IMG/VR virus record: IMGVR_UViG_2609459826_000002
From: a virus
Lineage: Duplodnaviria; Heunggongvirae; Uroviricota; Caudoviricetes
Reading direction: 5' to 3' (one strand)
Length of the DNA stretch: 64,000 nucleotides
Of this stretch, positions 2,971-28,257 are shown in pieces (the first letter of the stretch is position 1; each line of letters begins with the position of its first letter). The position numbers were made by a program, and so were the translations under genes. Below the pieces are notes generated by a model. The model was not told the origin of the DNA, searched no databases, and saw only the letters and a list, made by a program, of their open reading frames with translations.

Positions 2971-4466
2971 TATGCAGACTCCTCTGAATACTGAAGACGG
3001 AACTGGTTAACCACGGCAAAGACACGCAACTGGTTAACATAGTCAGGCGGGAACAGCGTGTTCAGGCGGTTCGGATCGCTGGCATCACGCTCCACAACCA
3101 GGTACTGCTTAAACAGTTCGTAGTTTTCCACGATCCCCGCACGCTCAAGCTGACGGTAGGTTGCCAGCAGTTCCCCTTTGATCACCGCCGGGGTGACAAT
3201 CGCCTGACCGGGACCAAAGCGGGTACCGTCACTGGCAAGCTTGTGACGCCCGTACTTACTGGTAATGACGGATTTCAGTTTGCGCAGTACATACGCGCTG
3301 GTATGCAGTGTCTCACTGTCGAGGTAGCTGTTATCCGCAACCCCGTAAGCGTTTTTCCTGTACGTGGTGACATCACGCTGAATGCGCAGTACCCCGCTTT
3401 CGACATACGCCGTTGCCACGCCATGAGACAGCAGGGTCTGTTGTTCGGTCATCGTGAACCGTTTCCCCTTCGGCGCAGGCAGCATACCCACCAGCTCACC
3501 GGTCTGCGTGGGACGTGCCGGATCGTTGCGGATAAACACCGCTGCGCGGGCGGTACGGCTTGCCGCAAGTTCGTCGGCAGGCGTCTGGGTCTCTTTTTCG
3601 TACCCTGCCAGGGTAATGTGCTGCTGGTTAAACTGGTCACCTGCGGTCACCAGTTCTGACAGCGTGCCGATCTTTGCCGTATACACATGACCATACAGCT
3701 GACGCGCATAGCTCCAGCGACCGCTGGTATCGTTCATCTCGGTCACCAGCGTGTTAACGGAGGCCGTGTCGTTGAACGGCAGGCCGATATAATCAAACGG
3801 CTCATCCGCCATTGCAGCCACCGCGCCGGTGAGAACCGGAGCACCCGTTCCGGCGGTACCCGTCGCCACGGCAATCTGTACGCCCGCTGGCAGCACTTCG
3901 CCCCCACCAAAGCCGTAGTAATTGAGGCTGACAGGAATTTCATTCCCGCAAAGCCCCTTATGACGCGCGGTAAGTGTGACCACGCCTGCCGAAGATGAAG
4001 CCGTAAACGGCAGGGCCGGAACGGCATTGATGGCATCTTTGATACTGCTGGCAATCGTCGTGACGTTATCGCCGTTGGTCACCGGAGCCTGCACGCGGGT
4101 ACGTCCCACATAGACATTCACCGTGCCGCTTTCGGTTGCTTCCCCGGTCACCGCCAGCGTAACCGTTGCCGCCGCGCCTGTGGCTTCCGGAACGGCAATC
4201 ACATACAGCTCACCAAACGGGTCTGTCTGGCGATAAGCCTCGACCATACGCGCCAGCTGACTTCCCGCACCACAAATCTGGCGTGCATAGTCTGCCGACG
4301 GCATCAGCACCAGACTGTTGGCAACAATCTCTGCACCGTTATTGGCATGACCAATCAGCAGCGATGCTCCGCTGTCCTGTGCAGTATTCGCAGCCTGGTT
4401 ATCCATTTCCGCATAAAACAGCGGAACCAGCGTATTCGACGGAATGGTGTTAAAGCTTATCGTCAT
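2970..4466 (-). CDS. phage tail sheath protein
   Basis: 498 aa, size and composition of contractile tail sheath; followed by tube, chaperone and tape measure in canonical order. Confidence 0.85.
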   Translation of the reverse strand: MTISFNTIPSNTLVPLFYAEMDNQAANTAQDSGASLLIGHANNGAEIVANSLVLMPSADYARQICGAGSQLARMVEAYRQTDPFGELYVIAVPEATGAAATVTLAVTGEATESGTVNVYVGRTRVQAPVTNGDNVTTIASSIKDAINAVPALPFTASSSAGVVTLTARHKGLCGNEIPVSLNYYGFGGGEVLPAGVQIAVATGTAGTGAPVLTGAVAAMADEPFDYIGLPFNDTASVNTLVTEMNDTSGRWSYARQLYGHVYTAKIGTLSELVTAGDQFNQQHITLAGYEKETQTPADELAASRTARAAVFIRNDPARPTQTGELVGMLPAPKGKRFTMTEQQTLLSHGVATAYVESGVLRIQRDVTTYRKNAYGVADNSYLDSETLHTSAYVLRKLKSVITSKYGRHKLASDGTRFGPGQAIVTPAVIKGELLATYRQLERAGIVENYELFKQYLVVERDASDPNRLNTLFPPDYVNQLRVFAVVNQFRLQYSEESA

Positions 4467-12706: not shown

Positions 12707-13012
12707 ATGACAATGGTCATAGGACAAGAAGATCAGAAATGCTGCCCGGCTTGCAATTCAGATGCGACCTGGCAGAACCGTGATACCGCTTGGTTAATTA
12801 GATGCCCGATGTGTGAAACATTTCTCATCAGGAATTCCACCATTGAAATTTTGCGAAGTGACGTTGTGTATCGGACATTAGCTGGTGACCTTCTCAAACA
12901 AGAAGGTGGGTGTGACTACATGCTTACAAGAGGAAGGCTTGCGAACTTCGCGAAAACCCAGCTCCCAAAATCAAAGTTTCAGGAATACTTCCCTGGTGAC
13001 AACTACGAATAA
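12707..13012 (+). CDS. hypothetical zinc-ribbon protein (possible moron, opposite strand to late operon)
   Basis: 101 aa; CPACNS...CPMCE two CxxC pairs; only plus-strand ORF in a minus-strand late operon. Confidence 0.35.
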   Translation: MTMVIGQEDQKCCPACNSDATWQNRDTAWLIRCPMCETFLIRNSTIEILRSDVVYRTLAGDLLKQEGGCDYMLTRGRLANFAKTQLPKSKFQEYFPGDNYE

Positions 13013-15663: not shown

Positions 15664-15882
15664 TCATTGCTGAAGGCGTCTGTAACAGCCGAACTGGTAA
15701 TCTACCAGCCCCGCCATAACCAGCTGGGTCAGTATTAACTGACAGCGTTCGCGTGAAAGGTATGTGTTTTGTGCAATCTCCCCGACTGTTGCCGGTTCGA
15801 TGCTTAATTCATTAAAAACAACTTTCGCCGTTTCTGTCATATCTTGCTGTTTTAGCATGTCTTTTTCCCTTCTGGTTAACAT
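15664..15882 (-). CDS. hypothetical small DNA-binding-like protein
   Basis: 72 aa ORF; alternative ATG at 15858 has better RBS. Confidence 0.35.
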   Translation of the reverse strand: MLTRREKDMLKQQDMTETAKVVFNELSIEPATVGEIAQNTYLSRERCQLILTQLVMAGLVDYQFGCYRRLQQ

Positions 15883-16050
15883 GACATACCAATAACTCTT
15901 GTCTAAAAAGCCAGCAAGATAAAAAGTCAGTATTCACGACCACCAGCGTGTTTACCGTACTGCTCTTGGTTTACAGGTACAAAAAAACCGCTCGACGGCG
16001 GGTTTAAGCTGTGTGGCGAAGTAACCACTCTTAACAGATTATGATAGTTT

Positions 16051-16079
16051 TTGCGTACGCGTTAGTAATTTATTATGCT
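16051..16079 (+). promoter_or_regulatory. candidate sigma70 promoter for the AT-rich cassette
   Basis: TTGCGT (16051-16056), 17-nt spacer, TATGCT (16074-16079), about 25-40 nt upstream of the possible starts. Confidence 0.3.
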
Positions 16080-16103
16080 CTTTACAATTGTTAGCTTAAC
16101 CGC

Positions 16104-17270
16104 ATGGAATTGACCAAAAAAATGAGCAAAGCAAGCATACGCCACGTAATCGTTCATGAGCTCTTAAAAGAATCTAATAAAGACTTCGATCACTCCAAAC
16201 CATACAATCTTCGTGATACAGAACTAGATAAAACAAATGATATAGTAAAAAAATTAGTAGACGGTGTTATTGATTTGTATGGTTCAAAAGGGAACTCAGC
16301 GCATTATGGTGTTTTTATTAAAAATAAAACAAAGCAAGGCCCTATACCAGAACTATTTCATAAATACTCTTTAGTTCAACAATCTGTTTCAAGTGATTTC
16401 ATTGAATTATCGAAGGAAGTTATGAAACAAATGTATAAATCTGCTCAAGAGCAGATTTGGGCTTCTGGAGGATATGTTGTTTTTACTGATTATATTTTAT
16501 CTGGTTTCCGTTATCTATTGGTTACAATGATCAAAAAAACTAATGGCGTAACTATTAGTGAAAATTTAGAGCCAGAGGAAATGATTCACTTAGAACTTGG
16601 TAATATTAACCAAGCAGCAAAAATAAATTTCAGATATTATGAAGAATACCAAAAAGCAGATGACTTAAAAAAAACAGACTTAAGTTATCTAAGCTTTATA
16701 AGCAAAACTACGGGACAGTCAGCGGCAGCATATTTTATAGCAGCATTAGGATGTGACAAGGGGATTGCTTCAGCAGGTGCAACCCGTAAGTTACCAGATG
16801 AAATAAGGCGTTTCTTTAAGAAAGAACCTCTTTTAAAAAATCAAGCAGAGTCATTTAGAAATGATGTTATCAAATACTTAGAAAAGCAATTTGACAACGA
16901 GCACTCTGCAAGGCTTTCTGATATCGAATCGCTTGCTTCAGGCCATATGTCCGATTTAAAAGAGGAAGAAAAAACAGAACTTGTTGATAAATTAATGAAA
17001 CACCTCAATAGTGAGGAAGTCAGAATCCCATCAGAGTTCGTAATCAATAAAAACTCCTTAGATAAAATCCGCAATGTGATATATAAAACCCCATCATTGA
17101 GCTTTCACTTCGACAAGGATTTACTCGGTGTCACAACTGATGCTAAAATATATTATGATGACGAAAACCAAAGCCTAACATTTAATAATTTGCCTGTTGA
17201 AGCATTAACTAAGATAAGAAGAGCGTTGAAAGAAACTGATAACCCGAGTAATGAAGAAGATAAAGAATGA
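16104..17270 (+). CDS. NA37/YejK(NdpA)-like nucleoid-associated-family protein (cassette gene 1)
   Basis: 388 aa, AT-rich; motifs IRHVIVHEL, ASGGYVVFTDY...RYLLVTMIKK, ISENLEPEE, LSYLSFISK recall YejK family by eye; alternative start ATG 16122 (MSKASIRH); ATGA overlap with next gene. Confidence 0.6.
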   Translation: MELTKKMSKASIRHVIVHELLKESNKDFDHSKPYNLRDTELDKTNDIVKKLVDGVIDLYGSKGNSAHYGVFIKNKTKQGPIPELFHKYSLVQQSVSSDFIELSKEVMKQMYKSAQEQIWASGGYVVFTDYILSGFRYLLVTMIKKTNGVTISENLEPEEMIHLELGNINQAAKINFRYYEEYQKADDLKKTDLSYLSFISKTTGQSAAAYFIAALGCDKGIASAGATRKLPDEIRRFFKKEPLLKNQAESFRNDVIKYLEKQFDNEHSARLSDIESLASGHMSDLKEEEKTELVDKLMKHLNSEEVRIPSEFVINKNSLDKIRNVIYKTPSLSFHFDKDLLGVTTDAKIYYDDENQSLTFNNLPVEALTKIRRALKETDNPSNEEDKE

Positions 17271-18493
17271 ATGATTTTAGTATAATAGTTAATCTGTATA
17301 GATTATCAAGCTATCCTCATTTTGACGGGGCTAAGTTTTCTGCGCGTATAGCTTATAATGCAGACGTAAAATCATTGTTCAAAAGAATTTTGAACCCTAC
17401 TTTTCAAGCTGGTACAGCTGACGAAATAGAGGTGGATGGTCATTTAATTTATGATTATGAAGACTTTCCTGAAAAGGGAAATTTTCTTACATACTCGTTT
17501 AAAATTTCACAAGGAAGTGCGAATCGTTTTTATAAAAATAAAAACGAGTTTGTAAAAATAAACACGCTCAAGAAAGGCATAATGCCAGAGTATTTCTATA
17601 TTATAGAGGATGATTTCTATTCATTAGAAACACCAAAACCTTCTTATATCCAAAAAATTGAGGACATTTGTGAGCTAATCAATGCTCTTTCCATGCTTGC
17701 TCATTTCCATGATATAAAAAAAGATAGCAAAGGTACATTTTATCGTTTAGTCTTTATTTTAAACTCAGAGTCTAAATCTTCTTCTGCTGTAATTGAAACA
17801 AATATTACAGAAGAAATTTTTAATGATAAAACAGTAAATACTCAGTTAGTTAAAACATTAGTAAGTAGTGAAGCTACTACTGATGCCCATCACATTGAAA
17901 AGATTAACACTTTCAGAAACACAGTTATTGAGTATGTTAATAAAAATGGAAATTCCTTTGTCGAGTTAATTAACAAGTGGGATTTCATATGCGAACTTTA
18001 TACGAACAACTTAGCTGCTTATATGTCGGCATTTTCTTTTCATAAAGCAAGGAAAGAAGTTGTTGATGCTGAACTCGATTACTCAGAAAAACTGTCAAAA
18101 ATAATTTCAGAAATTTCTAACAAAGCTCTTGCAATACCTATTTCACTAGCTGGTTCAATTGCTATTTTCAAATTAACAACAAAAACTGATTGGATTATTG
18201 CTTTAATTGGATTGATTATCACAGCAATAATAACATCTGCAATGATTGTGTCACAAAAAAAACAACTCGCTCGTATTTCACACTCTAAAGAAATACTTTT
18301 TGGACAATTAAGATATAGAATAAAGGATGACACCAGCGATCTTAAAGAGAGCTTAGAAGAGGCTATTAAAAAATTAAATGACAATGAGGATTTTTGTCAT
18401 AAGGTGCTTGACAGTTTATTATCACTAGCATGGATGCCTACATTCATAGGCATCATCGGTATTTTATTTAAATTAATGCCAAATATTACTTGA
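17267..18493 (+). CDS. hypothetical protein with C-terminal three-helix membrane anchor (cassette gene 2)
   Basis: 408 aa, AT-rich, start overlaps stop of gene 1 (ATGA); hydrophobic helices near residues 288-305, 310-333, 385-403; no recognisable catalytic motif. Confidence 0.75.
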   Translation: MNDFSIIVNLYRLSSYPHFDGAKFSARIAYNADVKSLFKRILNPTFQAGTADEIEVDGHLIYDYEDFPEKGNFLTYSFKISQGSANRFYKNKNEFVKINTLKKGIMPEYFYIIEDDFYSLETPKPSYIQKIEDICELINALSMLAHFHDIKKDSKGTFYRLVFILNSESKSSSAVIETNITEEIFNDKTVNTQLVKTLVSSEATTDAHHIEKINTFRNTVIEYVNKNGNSFVELINKWDFICELYTNNLAAYMSAFSFHKARKEVVDAELDYSEKLSKIISEISNKALAIPISLAGSIAIFKLTTKTDWIIALIGLIITAIITSAMIVSQKKQLARISHSKEILFGQLRYRIKDDTSDLKESLEEAIKKLNDNEDFCHKVLDSLLSLAWMPTFIGIIGILFKLMPNIT

Positions 18494-18830
18494 GCATGTA
18501 CATAACCCCATTAATGAAACCTAACGCAGTCTGCAATTGCTTCCGGATTGTTCCATCTGAGCATCTGCGTCTCTTCGCAATAGAACGCAGTGAAATACCT
18601 ATAACGAAGTGAGCAATGATCAGCTCATATTCGTCTGGTTTATACTTACACAGGCGGGCAACACAGCCGTCTATCATGATGCCTTCATCATCATCACACT
18701 GAAGGCGTATTTTTTTACCATGAGGTAAAAGCCCCTTAAAGCCTGCTGCTATCGGCTGCCAGTCCACACCACTGTTATCTGCTGCAGCCCACGCTCCCCA
18801 GCGGTCTAAAACTTCATACATATCACGCAT
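18486..18830 (-). CDS. late-gene antiterminator Q (QuuD-like)
   Basis: Motifs MRD.YEVLDRWGAWAA...IAAGFKGL...CDDDEG...CSDG resemble the small Q family as recalled; ATG 18830 with GGAGAAAG RBS (ORF track begins at a TTG). Confidence 0.65.
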   Translation of the reverse strand: MRDMYEVLDRWGAWAAADNSGVDWQPIAAGFKGLLPHGKKIRLQCDDDEGIMIDGCVARLCKYKPDEYELIIAHFVIGISLRSIAKRRRCSDGTIRKQLQTALGFINGVMYMLK

Positions 18831-18847
18831 CAACTTTCTCCACAAAA

Positions 18848-19843
18848 TCAGGCCAGCACGCCAATTGCCAGCGCACGATCGATAAAACGAAATATCAGCT
18901 CCAGCTGGGAGCCATACTTCTCTTCAAATGCCACGGTATCCGCATGCAGCTCGTCGTGATGCTTTCTGCACAAAGGCAACACAAAGAGGTCATGCGCTTT
19001 TGTACCCATCCCGCCCTGACCGTGGCCTATCAGGTGGTGGGGATCATCAGCAGGCTTTCCACAACATGCACACGGCTGCGTCTTAACCCAGCGCGTGTAC
19101 TTTTCGTTAACCCAGCGGCGACGTTTTGGGCGTAACATAAAAGACTCCGGCGACTCCGGATCCACTTTCAGCGCCAGCACCTTTTTCGCTTTATCCTGGA
19201 TGATGCTGGTGGCAGGAACCGAAGGCACAAGGTCACTTTCCCGGGTGACAGACGGCACAACAGGCTTCGGTAATCTCAGTGCCTTACGGGCTGCACTTTC
19301 CGGTAAGGCATCCGCCAGGTCATTACGAACCAGCCACCAGCACAGTTCCGGCATTGTCACAACGTGACTGTCATCAAAACCGAGATCCCGACGCACGACA
19401 GACAACACCCAGCGGGCACAGTTATCCGTTGCCATTGATTCCAGCCGTTCCGTGAATTGATCGCGCAGCTGGTTATCGCAGTGCCAGCACAGACGGATTG
19501 CGCCCGGCGCGTGTCGCATTGTGGTCATGTTCTCGCTGTGCCAGTCGGAATGAGGCCATTGGCAGCCTTTTTCACGAAGTAACCAGCTTTCAAGACATTC
19601 CACCCCACCAGCACGACGGATCACTGCCTCATTGCGGAACACGGCCCGAACGGCAGGATCATCCGCCAGCGGTTGTGATGCCGCCGGAACGGCACCACTG
19701 GCGAAAGATGAATAACGTTCCGGCTCAGGCTCCAGCAGGACACGCCCCTGCATAAACAGGGGCATCAGCTCTGAACCGGGCCTGAACAATACGATCCCCA
19801 TACGCGGGGCAATTTCAGGGGTCAGTAGTGCTCTCACGGTCAC
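18848..19843 (-). CDS. phage protein with C-terminal HNH-like Cys/His motif (DUF968-like)
   Basis: 331 aa; C-terminal CACCGKP...PHHL...CRKHHDELH; ORF starts with GTG, alternative ATG at 19801. Confidence 0.55.
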   Translation of the reverse strand: MTVRALLTPEIAPRMGIVLFRPGSELMPLFMQGRVLLEPEPERYSSFASGAVPAASQPLADDPAVRAVFRNEAVIRRAGGVECLESWLLREKGCQWPHSDWHSENMTTMRHAPGAIRLCWHCDNQLRDQFTERLESMATDNCARWVLSVVRRDLGFDDSHVVTMPELCWWLVRNDLADALPESAARKALRLPKPVVPSVTRESDLVPSVPATSIIQDKAKKVLALKVDPESPESFMLRPKRRRWVNEKYTRWVKTQPCACCGKPADDPHHLIGHGQGGMGTKAHDLFVLPLCRKHHDELHADTVAFEEKYGSQLELIFRFIDRALAIGVLA

Positions 19844-27249: not shown

Positions 27250-27602
27250 ATGTTTTCGAAATGGAAGGGTTTCTTCGTGGGAGATGTGTACCGCGAGATC
27301 TGAAAGTGAATGAAACAGATGCTGAATACCTGGTGCGTAAATTCGATACGCTTGAAGCTAAATGTGCAGCACAGGAAAACAAAGTAATACCAGTGTCAAC
27401 TGAACTGCCACCAGCAAATAAAAGTGCTTTGTTATTCGATGCTAACGGAGAAGGCTGGCTAATTGGCTGGCGTTCTCTCTGGTACACCTGGGGACAAAAA
27501 GAAACCGGAGAATGGCAGTGGACATTTCAGGTCGGGGACCTTGAAAACGTCAATATCACTCACTGGGCAGTAATGCCAAAAGCACCGGAGGCTGGAGCAT
27601 AA
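27246..27602 (+). CDS. hypothetical phage protein
   Basis: ATGA overlap with upstream gene; Trp-rich. Confidence 0.45.
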   Translation: MNVFEMEGFLRGRCVPRDLKVNETDAEYLVRKFDTLEAKCAAQENKVIPVSTELPPANKSALLFDANGEGWLIGWRSLWYTWGQKETGEWQWTFQVGDLENVNITHWAVMPKAPEAGA

Positions 27603-27907
27603 TGACCACTTTTACCGACAAAGAACTGATTAAAGAAATTAAAGAGCGTATCAGCAGCCTTGACGTGCGAGACGATATTGAGCGCCGTGCTTATGAAATC
27701 GCACTCCTATCTCTGGAAGTAGAACCAGATGAACGCGAAGCTTATGAATTATTCATGGAAAAGCGTTTCGGTGACTTAGTAGATCGTCGGAGAGCAAAAA
27801 ACGGCGATAACGAATACATGGCATGGGATATGACTCTCGGTTGGATCGTCTGGCAGCAACGAGCAGGTATCCATTTTTCAACAATGTCACAACAAGAGGT
27901 GAAATAA
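27602..27907 (+). CDS. hypothetical phage protein
   Basis: 101 aa, TAATG coupling on both sides. Confidence 0.45.
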   Translation: MTTFTDKELIKEIKERISSLDVRDDIERRAYEIALLSLEVEPDEREAYELFMEKRFGDLVDRRRAKNGDNEYMAWDMTLGWIVWQQRAGIHFSTMSQQEVK

Positions 27908-28257
27908 TGGAGCCATACAGCCTCACACTCGATGAGGCCTGTCATTTTCTCAAGATATCCAGACCGACTGCCATTAACTGGATACGCACAGGGCGTCTTC
28001 AGGCAACACGCAAAGATCCCACTAAGAATAAATCTCCTTACCTCACAACACGACAAGCCTGCATTGCGGCTCTTCAGTCTCCGCTGCATACTGTCCAGGT
28101 GAGCGCGGGTGATGGCATAACAGAGGAAAGAAAATGTCACTCTTCCGCAGAGGTGAAATATGGTACGCCAGTTTCACATTGCCGAACGGTAAAAGATTTA
28201 AACAGTCTCTTGGAACAAAGGACAAAAGGCAGGCGACAGAACTCCATGACAAGCTAA
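27907..28257 (+). CDS. xis: excisionase-like protein
   Basis: ATG 27907; [32 protein letters not shown]; immediately upstream of and overlapping integrase gene; 3' boundary uncertain. Confidence 0.5.

What the first reader, a model, noticed from the sequence alone, without database searches (positions are those of the whole stretch)
16040..18493. AT-rich two-gene cassette (NA37/YejK-like protein + membrane-anchored partner) inserted against the grain between prophage late operon and Q: candidate undescribed anti-phage module
Seen: two plus-strand ORFs (16104-17270, 17267-18493) with ATGA start/stop overlap in a block where every neighbouring prophage gene is on the minus strand. Base composition shifts abruptly to AT-rich. 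A sigma70-like promoter (16051-16079) lies upstream and the cassette ends convergent with Q. ORF1 carries motifs that recall the NA37/YejK(NdpA) nucleoid-associated family (IRHVIVHEL, GGYVVFTDY..RYLLV, ENLEPEE, YLSFISK). ORF2 has a soluble ~280-aa N-terminal region and three C-terminal hydrophobic helices. Inference: a DNA/nucleoid-sensing component paired with a membrane effector, in the classic lambdoid moron position downstream of Q, is the architecture of abortive-infection systems. I do not recognise this pair as any named defence system.
Basis: partly seen in the sequence, partly recalled or inferred. Interest (0 to 1): 0.85.

Follow-up and report, generated by a model that had tools for sequence, protein, structure and literature searches.

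The report
Prophage YejK-like plus membrane-protein defence pair
This AT-rich two-gene cassette in an E. coli prophage is a distant, untested relative of a two-gene anti-phage system first described in 2025-2026 (DS-1 / type II PANGU), so it is real and probably defensive but no longer undescribed.

Summary
Two overlapping plus-strand ORFs (388 and 408 aa) lie in a GC 0.29-0.35 block among minus-strand SfV-like prophage genes, convergent with antiterminator Q. ORF1 is a full-length NA37/YejK-family protein. ORF2 has a soluble N-terminal region and three C-terminal hydrophobic helices.

The pair is not undescribed. Both genes are remote homologs (22-24% identity; hhalign probability 99.3% for ORF2) of DS-1A and DS-1B, a system validated in E. 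coli (DeWeirdt et al., Science 2026). The exact ORF2 protein, WP_016159279.1, is listed there as a predicted but uncloned defence gene. The architecture also matches type II PANGU (bioRxiv, April 2026): a YejK-like sensor plus a C-terminally membrane-anchored effector acting by abortive infection.

The cassette occupies a cargo hotspot between a short Q gene and a conserved ~70-bp module. I read that module as Q's late promoter region. In other phages this slot holds DS-1 itself, Kiwa, a Menshen NsnA/PD-T4-2-like gene, an NA37 plus RelA/SpoT pair and about 30 other cargos.

Verdict: a new, untested member of a known kind. The effector mechanism remains unknown.

The parts
15977..15999 (-). Hairpin plus T-run terminator on the late-gene strand; candidate tR' downstream of the Q-dependent late promoter.
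   Evidence: Terminator-like site with stem 15999-15987 and tail TTTTTTTGTAC. It aligns with the annotated rho-independent terminator after Q in phage SfV and is conserved in cdtI and mEp460. Equivalent hairpin plus T-run sites occur in most related loci. The tR' function is inferred.
16003..16073 (.). Conserved ~70-bp module that always accompanies the short Q gene; candidate pR'/Q-binding region. It contains the invariant 16-mer TTTTGCGTACGCGTTA (16049-16064) with the palindrome GCGTACGC.
   Evidence: High conservation from -46 to +24 around the 16-mer in 109 non-redundant loci. The 16-mer was found in 120 IMG/VR stretches. In every locus where Q was detected, Q lies on the opposite strand, 41 to 3771 nt away. 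In the empty-slot locus L098 the Q stop codon is 16 nt from the 16-mer. Phage cdtI has a variant palindrome together with a divergent Q allele. The function is inferred, not shown.
16051..16079 (+). Sigma-70-type promoter of the cassette: -35 TTGCGT (16051-16056), 17-nt spacer, -10 TATGCT (16074-16079).
Evidence: The -35 lies in the invariant block. A TAnnnT hexamer at the same offset occurs in 75 of 109 loci with many different cargos, against 9 or fewer at other offsets. The simple consensus scan did not flag it. There is no expression data.
16104..17270 (+). ORF1: NA37/YejK-family nucleoid-associated-type protein (388 aa, or 382 aa from the PGAP start at 16122). Proposed sensor; homolog of DS-1A and analogue of Pag2A.
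   Evidence: Pfam NA37 E 2.3e-50. NCBIfam YejK at 134 bits, below the 341-bit equivalog cutoff; DS1_1_antiphage E 2.6e-28. PDB YejK 9be2 E 4.6e-15. phrog_3767 E 2.6e-98. BLASTP against DS-1A gives 24% identity, E 8e-11.
17267..18493 (+). ORF2: 408-aa protein with a cytoplasmic alpha/beta N-terminal domain, a long helix and three C-terminal hydrophobic helices. Proposed membrane effector; homolog of DS-1B and identical to WP_016159279.1.
   Evidence: NCBIfam DS1_2_antiphage E 1.5e-28 at 100 bits, cutoff 315. hhalign of its family against the DS-1B family gives probability 99.3%, E 1.3e-20, 306 columns. phrog_5023 E 7.5e-139. Hydropathy; AF2 model. Listed as a predicted defence gene with log-odds 13.05.
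18486..18845 (-). Short antiterminator Q (context, not part of the system); convergent with ORF2, with an 8-nt overlap of the 3' ends.
   Evidence: Pfam Phage_antitermQ E 5e-44. A Q homolog lies within about 100 nt downstream of the ORF2 homolog, on the opposite strand, in 52 of 55 related loci.

Best explanation
The cassette is a prophage-carried, two-gene anti-phage system of the DS-1 / type II PANGU kind.

Proposed mechanism:
1. In the lysogen both genes are transcribed from a sigma-70 promoter (TTGCGT-N17-TATGCT). Translation is probably coupled through the ATGA overlap.
2. ORF1, a YejK-like protein expected to form a dimeric DNA clamp, sits on the host nucleoid.
3. ORF2 is anchored in the inner membrane by three C-terminal helices, with its ~285-aa N-terminal domain in the cytoplasm.
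4. When an infecting phage degrades or remodels host DNA, ORF1 is released and binds the N-terminal domain of ORF2.
5. ORF2 is thereby switched on and damages membrane integrity or ion balance. The infected cell stops supporting phage growth (abortive infection).

Shown here: the homology of both genes to DS-1, the domain architecture, inheritance of the two genes as one unit, location in a defence-cargo hotspot, and the conserved promoter.

Taken from others' experiments on relatives, or on systems of the same architecture:
- DS-1 gives anti-phage protection.
- In PANGU-Ecu both genes are required and neither is toxic alone.
- PANGU-Ecu shows an abortive-infection phenotype.
- The NAP leaves the nucleoid on T4 infection.
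- The NAP binds the effector's N-terminal domain at nanomolar affinity.

Inferred only: that this particular pair defends, what triggers it, and that the effector acts on the membrane.
For: Homology to DS-1:
- Both genes hit the NCBIfam DS-1 models at E about 1e-28.
- The ORF2 family against the DS-1B family gives hhalign probability 99.3%.
- BLASTP of each gene against its DS-1 counterpart gives E 8e-11.
- DS-1 (working id D390) protected MG1655 in plaque assays: -log EOP 7.6 for Bas1, 2.7 for Bas26, 1.7 for Bas3 and for T3 (PMC13092281, Table S7).
- The exact ORF2 protein has DefensePredictor log-odds 13.05.

Type II PANGU has the same architecture, a YejK-like NAP plus a C-terminal-TM effector, with functional data (bioRxiv 10.64898/2026.04.06.716658).

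The pair behaves as a unit:
- An NA37 gene precedes the ORF2 homolog in all 55 fetched loci.
- Divergence of ORF1 and ORF2 from the window copies is correlated at r = 0.94, while neither correlates with Q (r = -0.06).

Context:
- DS-1 itself (100% identity) occupies the same slot beside the same 16-mer.
- The slot also carries KwaB (E 5e-144), an NsnA/PD-T4-2_A-like gene, a PtuA/HEC-04-like ATPase with a methyltransferase, and an NA37 plus RelA_SpoT pair.
- Remote DS-1B homologs, each with an NA37 gene upstream, lie in a P4-like satellite, next to a BstA_C-domain gene, and in an island with AbiEii and a SNF2 helicase.

ORF2 topology and model.
Against: - No experiment exists on this pair, and identity to DS-1 is only 22-24%.
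- Both proteins score far below the NCBIfam equivalog cutoffs: 99 against 330 bits, and 100 against 315 bits.
- ORF1 lacks the N-terminal zinc ribbon of DS-1A.
- In the phmmer alignment to 9be2, the first basic triad that YejK needs for DNA binding (R173/R176/K177) aligns to T/Q/S in ORF1. The second triad is only partly kept. This is my reading against PMC11229321, and it means nucleoid binding is not assured.
- The ORF2 N-terminal region is only mildly acidic (net -8, pI 5.5). The PANGU authors stress a strongly acidic, DNA-mimicking surface.
- PADLOC v2 has no hit.
Confidence: 0.7

Rival explanations
1. Superinfection exclusion at the membrane. ORF2 tethers the DNA-clamp protein ORF1 to the inner membrane, where it traps or blocks incoming phage DNA. 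Infection is stopped without killing the cell.
For: A membrane anchor is combined with a DNA-binding-type protein, and the pair is encoded by a prophage and read from its own promoter. DS-1 acts on several unrelated siphoviruses and podoviruses, as some entry blocks do.
Against: For the architecturally matching PANGU-Ecu, cultures showed stunted growth at high MOI and falling phage titres, read as abortive infection. The NAP was on the nucleoid, not at the membrane, before infection. Nothing here shows ORF1 at the membrane.
Confidence: 0.1
2. The pair serves the prophage's own life cycle rather than defence. It might remodel the nucleoid or membrane during lysogeny or induction. Alternatively it might act mainly as a transcription unit whose read-through is antisense to Q and keeps late genes silent.
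For: A short Q gene sits convergent and adjacent in 52 of 55 loci. No plus-strand terminator-like site was found between ORF2 and Q, so cassette transcripts probably run antisense into Q. Lambda has an antisense promoter within Q (paQ); that point is from my own knowledge.
Against: The slot holds about 38 unrelated cargo types, including Kiwa and a Menshen-like gene, and can be empty. So no particular cargo is needed by the phage. Relatives of the pair occur away from Q in satellites and defence islands. DS-1 protects when cloned alone on a plasmid. Only 30 of 5426 E. coli genomes carry the cassette. An antisense effect on Q could still coexist with defence.
Confidence: 0.1
3. A decaying or non-functional passenger: a homolog of a defence system that no longer works, or a selfish addiction module without anti-phage activity.
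For: Only 45% of DefensePredictor-selected transcription units validated. One E. coli strain (268.2) has an IS1 inside this region.
Against: Both ORFs are intact and full length. The region is 99.5% identical or better in the 25 E. coli genomes listed, out of 30 that carry it. The family keeps full-length proteins and invariant motifs from 100% down to about 30% identity across Enterobacterales. PANGU-Ecu components were not toxic alone, which argues against a classical toxin-antitoxin addiction module.
Confidence: 0.1

Closest known systems
DS-1 (DefensePredictor system 1; DS-1A WP_000355468.1 plus DS-1B WP_000150292.1; NCBIfam NF053868/NF053869)
   Same: - Two genes in the same order: an NA37/YejK-like protein of about 390 aa, then a protein of about 405 aa with C-terminal hydrophobic helices.
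- Both pairs of proteins are homologous.
- Both sit in the same genomic slot beside the same invariant 16-mer and a convergent short Q.
- Both belong to Enterobacterales prophages.
   Different: - Identity is only 22-24%, far below the equivalog cutoffs.
- ORF1 lacks the N-terminal zinc ribbon (CxxC...CxxC) of DS-1A and instead starts with the canonical NA37 motif IRHVIVHEL.
- The two partner families form separate clusters that do not find each other in a word-seeded search.
- DS-1 is experimentally validated; this pair is not.
Type II PANGU (Pag2A plus Pag2B; Li et al., bioRxiv 2026)
   Same: A bicistronic operon encodes a YejK-like NAP followed by an effector with an N-terminal soluble domain and a C-terminal transmembrane domain. 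It was found in E. coli. The proposed logic, a nucleoid-bound sensor that is released and then binds the effector, fits the parts seen here.
   Different: - Sequence relatedness could not be tested, because the Pag2A and Pag2B sequences are not in the held text.
- The strongly acidic, DNA-mimicking character claimed for the Pag2B N-terminal domain is only weakly reflected here (net -8 over 285 aa).
- PANGU systems were defined by linkage to defence islands, whereas this one sits in a prophage Q slot.
E. coli YejK (housekeeping nucleoid-associated DNA clamp; PDB 9BE2)
   Same: ORF1 aligns over the full two-domain length (E 4.6e-15). It keeps the N-terminal motif and the hydrophobic core pattern.
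   Different: - It is not the ortholog: 134 bits against a cutoff of 341.
- It is prophage-borne, AT-rich and operonic with a membrane protein.
- The first DNA-binding basic triad is not conserved in the pairwise alignment.
Kiwa (KwaA membrane protein plus KwaB)
   Same: It is a two-gene defence system that pairs a membrane protein with a cytoplasmic DNA-related partner. It occurs as alternative cargo in the very same Q slot.
   Different: There is no sequence similarity and no PADLOC hit. Gene order and domains differ.

Membership tests
Pfam NA37 / YejK-like nucleoid-associated proteins (ORF1) | Profile match above the gathering score, covering both domains | tested here: met
   172.3 bits against a 24.6-bit cutoff, profile positions 1-321 of 325. 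PDB YejK 9be2 E 4.6e-15 over residues 11-372.
Pfam NA37 / YejK-like nucleoid-associated proteins (ORF1) | Orthology with housekeeping YejK (NCBIfam equivalog NF001557) | tested here: not met
   134 bits against a 341-bit cutoff. ORF1 is a divergent paralog, not YejK itself.
Pfam NA37 / YejK-like nucleoid-associated proteins (ORF1) | Basic pore residues needed for DNA binding in YejK (R173/R176/K177 and R276/R280/K284; PMC11229321) | tested here: inconclusive
   In the phmmer alignment the first triad aligns to T/Q/S. The second aligns to K/D/N, with K and R one position away. A pairwise alignment at low identity cannot settle this, and no electrostatics were computed.
DS-1 (DefensePredictor) | Gene 1 is a YejK/NA37-domain protein | tested here: met
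   DS-1A domain annotation is in Table S8 of PMC13092281.
DS-1 (DefensePredictor) | Gene 2 is homologous to DS-1B | tested here: met
   hhalign probability 99.3%, E 1.3e-20, 306 aligned columns. NF053869 E 1.5e-28. Local HMM cross-hits at E 1.8e-26.
DS-1 (DefensePredictor) | Equivalog-level similarity (NCBIfam cutoffs for NF053868 and NF053869) | tested here: not met
   99.1 against 330 bits, and 100 against 315 bits.
DS-1 (DefensePredictor) | N-terminal zinc ribbon on gene 1 | tested here: not met
   DS-1A begins MDITCLECG...CDKCG, with a NinF-like hit at residues 3-26 in the paper's Table S5. ORF1 has no Cys pairs there, and the alignment to DS-1A starts at ORF1 residue 71.
DS-1 (DefensePredictor) | Anti-phage protection when cloned with the native promoter | not testable with these tools
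   Needs plaque assays. Only DS-1 itself was tested.
Type II PANGU | Bicistronic operon with the YejK-like NAP gene first | tested here: met
   ATGA overlap in the window. An NA37 gene lies directly upstream of the ORF2 homolog in 55 of 55 loci.
Type II PANGU | Effector with a C-terminal transmembrane domain | tested here: met
   Hydropathy peaks at 287-305, 303-331 and 380-405, which are helical in the AF2 model.
Type II PANGU | Acidic, DNA-mimicking N-terminal (DMK) domain on the effector | tested here: inconclusive
   Residues 1-285 have net charge -8 and pI 5.46. The domain is alpha/beta plus one long helix. The surface charge distribution was not computed.
Type II PANGU | Sequence homology to Pag2A and Pag2B | not testable with these tools
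   The preprint text held contains no sequences or accessions, and no supplements are held.
Type II PANGU | NAP leaves the nucleoid on infection and binds the effector's N-terminal domain | not testable with these tools
   Needs microscopy and binding assays.
CorA-type divalent-cation channels (considered for ORF2) | Significant fold match plus the GMN signature after the first pore helix | tested here: not met
Known systems in PADLOC-DB v2 (2023) | Any model hit | tested here: not met
   ORF1 gives only DrmC at E 0.049, and ORF2 gives none.

The most novel reading that the evidence does not exclude
The window-type pair may be a mechanistically distinct branch of the NA37-plus-membrane-partner superfamily.
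- Its sensor has lost YejK's first DNA-binding triad and the DS-1 zinc ribbon, so it may read a cue other than bulk host-DNA degradation.
- Its effector may be a CorA-like gated ion conduit.
- Because the cassette is read from a promoter built into the Q/pR' module and runs antisense into Q, expression of defence cargo may be coupled to silencing of the prophage's own late switch.
Probability: 0.12. Interest if true: 0.6.

Novelty: new member of a known kind. Interest (0 to 1): 0.35.

Why it matters
YejK-like proteins as infection sensors are a very recent idea, and the membrane effector branch (DS-1B, Pag2B) has no known mechanism. This window supplies a natural, deeply diverged second lineage of that pair. 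A third lineage (the c21 type) turned up in the same slot. Together these lineages show which residues are invariant across them: D-x-H-x-x-E-(K/R)...(F/I)R(N/S)(T/A)..E, FS(F/V)(H/N)K and L(A/T)IP. That helps in designing mutants and in defining the sensor-effector interface.

The side finding may be more useful. The gap between a short Q gene and its conserved ~70-bp downstream module is a compact, easily searchable cargo slot in Enterobacterales prophages. It comes with a built-in promoter. About 38 cargo types were found in 75 loci, most without any annotation, and this is a ready source of candidate defence systems.

Tried and rejected
- **PADLOC v2 on both ORFs:** no hit. This reflects the library's 2023 date, not absence of the family.
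- **tblastn of DS-1B against isolated phage genomes:** no match. ORF2 matched only Klebsiella phage P7641.
- **PDB sequence search with the ORF2 family profile:** nothing meaningful, only YbgF coiled coil at E 0.06.
- **Exhaustive representative-protein search:** The size of the superfamily beyond the 59 plus 69 clusters found is therefore unknown.
- **Pag2A and Pag2B sequences:** I tried to obtain them from the PANGU preprint to test identity, but no accessions or supplements are held.
- **Plus-strand ORF 12707-13012:** considered as another opposite-strand moron. It overlaps an annotated minus-strand gene in the identical E. coli YF-1 record, so I dropped it.
- **Fixed position next to Q as a sign of core phage genes:** rejected, because the slot is empty or holds unrelated cargo in most Q-bearing loci.
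Full report
**1. Observation**

- ORF1 (16104-17270) and ORF2 (17267-18493) lie on the plus strand and share an ATGA overlap.
- GC drops to 0.29-0.35 across the cassette, against 0.46-0.58 on either side.
- An identical 3.3-kb region is annotated in E. coli YF-1. There PGAP calls ORF1 a "nucleoid-associated protein" (WP_227912851.1, starting at window 16122) and ORF2 a hypothetical protein (WP_016159279.1).
- The element is an SfV/phiP27-like prophage next to tRNA-Thr and proA. All its neighbouring genes are on the minus strand.
- ORF2 ends convergent with a short antiterminator Q (Pfam Phage_antitermQ, E 5e-44). The 3' ends overlap by 8 nt.
- ORF1 is a full-length NA37 protein (E 2.3e-50) and aligns end to end with solved YejK (9be2, E 4.6e-15).
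- ORF2 has three hydrophobic segments at 287-305, 303-331 and 380-405.
- A confident AF2 model of ORF2 (pLDDT 85) shows an alpha/beta N-terminal domain (about 1-235), a long helix (238-287) and a helical membrane region.

**2. Identity**

PADLOC v2 (2023) finds nothing. NCBIfam release 20 gives paired hits: ORF1 to DS1_1_antiphage (E 2.6e-28) and ORF2 to DS1_2_antiphage (E 1.5e-28). Both are well below the equivalog cutoffs.

These models derive from DS-1 of the DefensePredictor study (PMC13092281). DS-1 consists of WP_000355468.1 (391 aa, zinc ribbon plus NA37) and WP_000150292.1 (404 aa). It was cloned with its native promoter in MG1655 and protects against several phages: -log EOP 7.6 for Bas1, 2.7 for Bas26, 1.7 for Bas3, 1.7 for T3 and 1.0 for T5.

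Evidence that the window pair is related to DS-1:
- Pairwise identity is 24% for ORF1 and 22% for ORF2, E 8e-11 each.
- A profile-profile comparison of the ORF2 family (59 clusters; alignment A3) with the DS-1B family (69 clusters; alignment A4) gives probability 99.3%, E 1.3e-20 over 306 columns.
- The exact ORF2 protein appears in that paper's Table S10 as a "predicted novel defense gene" with log-odds 13.05. It is not among the cloned systems.

The paper gives no mechanism for DS-1.

**3. A second relevant description**

A preprint of April 2026 (10.64898/2026.04.06.716658) defines PANGU systems as a YejK-like NAP plus an effector. Type II pairs the NAP Pag2A with Pag2B, which has an N-terminal acidic "DNA-mimicking" domain and a C-terminal TM domain. 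For an E. coli type II operon the authors report the following:
- Both genes are required, and neither is toxic alone.
- Growth and titre behaviour indicate abortive infection.
- Pag2A-GFP leaves the nucleoid on T4 infection.
- Pag2A binds the Pag2B N-terminal domain with KD 19 nM.
- How Pag2B is activated, and what it does, is stated to be unknown.

The window pair has this architecture. I could not test sequence identity because no sequences are held. The ORF2 N-terminal region is only mildly acidic (net -8, pI 5.5).

**4. The pair is a unit**

- In all 55 loci fetched through ORF2 homologs, an NA37 gene lies directly upstream on the same strand. These loci span 31-100% identity and include Escherichia, Salmonella, Klebsiella, Pectobacterium, Edwardsiella and Serratia, among others.
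- Divergence of ORF1 and ORF2 from the window copies is tightly correlated (r = 0.94, 35 distinct variants). Neither correlates with the adjacent Q (r = -0.06).
- The isolated Klebsiella phage P7641 carries a 48%-identical pair in the same place, annotated only as hypothetical proteins.

**5. Context: a cargo hotspot between Q and a conserved module**

In 52 of 55 loci a short Q gene lies convergent, within about 100 nt of the ORF2 homolog's end. This fixed position could have argued for a core phage role, so I tested it.

- *Related phages differ in the slot.* SfV has a different, long Q and no insert. mEp460 has one same-strand gene. cdtI has a short Q and a different opposite-strand pair, DUF6731 plus a 147-aa protein.
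- *A conserved element lies upstream of ORF1.* Every Q-linked locus has it, with an invariant core TTTTGCGTACGCGTTA at window 16049-16064.
- *The 16-mer and Q travel together.* Scanning IMG/VR for this 16-mer returned 120 stretches. Wherever the locus extends far enough, the short Q is on the opposite strand, 41 to 3771 nt away.
- *The slot can be empty.* In locus L098 the Q stop codon is 16 nt from the 16-mer.
- *The cargo is diverse.* The 75 loci with both ends present fall into 38 cargo clusters. Nearly all cargo genes read away from the module, and median GC is 0.34 against 0.48 for the late-gene flank.
- *Much of the identifiable cargo is defence-related*:
  - DS-1 itself at 100% identity.
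  - Kiwa (KwaB, E 5e-144).
  - An NsnA/PD-T4-2_A-like gene (Menshen).
  - A PtuA/HEC-04-like ATPase with a C5 methyltransferase.
  - PDC-M53A.
  - An NA37 plus RelA_SpoT pair, which is the type I PANGU architecture.
  - A third lineage of NA37 plus ORF2-like partner, cluster c21.

Outside this slot, remote DS-1B homologs sit with their NA37 partner in three other settings. One is a P4-like satellite. One lies next to a BstA_C-domain gene. One is in an island with AbiEii, an AAA_21 ATPase and a SNF2 helicase.

**6. Promoter and module**

- Conservation spans -46 to +24 around the 16-mer, which is window 16003-16073.
- Exactly 17 nt after TTGCGT (16051-16056), a TAnnnT hexamer occurs in 75 of 109 non-redundant loci, whatever the cargo. 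No neighbouring offset has more than 9.
- The left part of the module is followed on the minus strand by a hairpin plus T-run (15999-15977). This aligns with SfV's annotated terminator after Q.
- I infer that the module is the Q-dependent late promoter and Q-binding region with its tR', and that cargo is inserted between Q and its site of action. This is inference only.
- No plus-strand terminator-like site follows ORF2, so cassette transcripts probably continue antisense into Q. Whether that matters for lysogeny is untested.

**7. Mechanism**

The best-supported model is the PANGU/DS-1 logic.
1. ORF1 sits on DNA as a YejK-type clamp. YejK forms a dimeric ring with a basic 30-angstrom pore (PMC11229321).
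2. Phage-induced loss or alteration of host DNA frees ORF1.
3. Free ORF1 binds the cytoplasmic N-terminal domain of membrane-anchored ORF2.
4. ORF2 then compromises the membrane, and the infection aborts.

Residues invariant across the window-type and DS-1-type partner families lie in the N-terminal domain and just before the first TM helix: D-x-H-x-x-E-(K/R)...(F/I)R(N/S)(T/A)..E, FS(F/V)(H/N)K and L(A/T)IP. They are candidates for the sensor interface or the switch.

Caveats:
- In the alignment to YejK, the first DNA-binding triad (R173/R176/K177) corresponds to T/Q/S in ORF1, and the second is only partly retained.
- ORF1 lacks the DS-1A zinc ribbon.

The trigger and the effector chemistry are therefore open.

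**8. Rivals**

- A non-abortive entry block.
- A role in the prophage's own regulation.
- A non-functional passenger.

All three are less likely, for the reasons given under each. None is excluded without experiments.

**9. Verdict**

The kind of system is now known and named, and this exact protein has already been flagged computationally. It is a new, untested and deeply diverged member of the DS-1 / type II PANGU-like family.
- About 0.55% of complete E. coli genomes carry it (30 of 5426).
- Interest is moderate to low for the cassette itself.
- The Q-slot hotspot with its built-in promoter is the more reusable observation.

Noticed in passing
window 16003-16079 and 18486-18845; loci L064-L183: The gap between a short Q gene (~115 aa, PF06530) and a conserved ~70-bp module is a cargo hotspot. 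The module has the invariant 16-mer TTTTGCGTACGCGTTA. Cargo ranges from 0 to 3.8 kb and forms 38 clusters in 75 IMG/VR loci, nearly all AT-rich and read away from the module from a positionally conserved TTGCGT-N17-TAnnnT promoter. Identified cargo includes Kiwa, an NsnA/PD-T4-2-like gene, an ATPase with a methyltransferase, PDC-M53A, NA37 plus RelA_SpoT, and DS-1. Most cargo has no annotation.
   Followed up: yes
window 16049-16064; L004 (phage cdtI) ~3480-3500: The invariant block contains the palindrome GCGTACGC. Phage cdtI has a divergent allele of the short Q and carries GCGGACCGC at the same place. This is a possible co-variation of Q with its binding element.
   Followed up: partly
window 18400-18900: No plus-strand terminator-like site lies between the ORF2 stop and the convergent Q gene, and their 3' ends overlap by 8 nt. 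Cassette transcription probably runs antisense through Q.
   Followed up: no
L096, about 20-2350 nt to the right of the 16-mer (cargo cluster c21): A third deep lineage of the pair sits in the same slot. It has an NA37 protein (356 aa, Pfam E 1.5e-68) and a 423-aa partner that both the ORF2-family HMM (E 2e-26) and the DS-1B-family HMM (E 4e-15) detect.
   Followed up: partly
L097, about 20-2130 nt to the right of the 16-mer (cargo cluster c9): An NA37 protein (372 aa) followed by a RelA_SpoT-domain protein (330 aa) occupies the same Q slot. This is the type I PANGU architecture (NAP plus toxSAS).
   Followed up: partly
E. coli 268.2, NZ_CP059947.1 1161191-1165269 (hit H9): One strain has an IS1 family transposase inserted within the 3.3-kb region, so the match splits into two pieces. 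This may be natural inactivation of the cassette or its surroundings.
   Followed up: no
window ~27305-28002 (L001 31706-32403): An IS1A element splits the yfdR (5'-deoxynucleotidase) gene in the early region of the same prophage, according to the annotation of the identical E. coli YF-1 record.
   Followed up: no
window 15664-15882 (minus strand): The first gene after the putative tR' encodes a 72-aa protein with weak winged-helix hits (TrmB, DprA_WH and MarR_2, E about 1e-3). It is conserved in SfV (orf47), cdtI and mEp460 and precedes a DNA methyltransferase at the head of the late operon.
   Followed up: no
L184 (Klebsiella phage P7641, PQ133623.1 3821-6526): An isolated phage genome carries a 48%-identical pair in the same slot, convergent with a 115-aa gene. 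All three genes are annotated as hypothetical proteins.
   Followed up: partly
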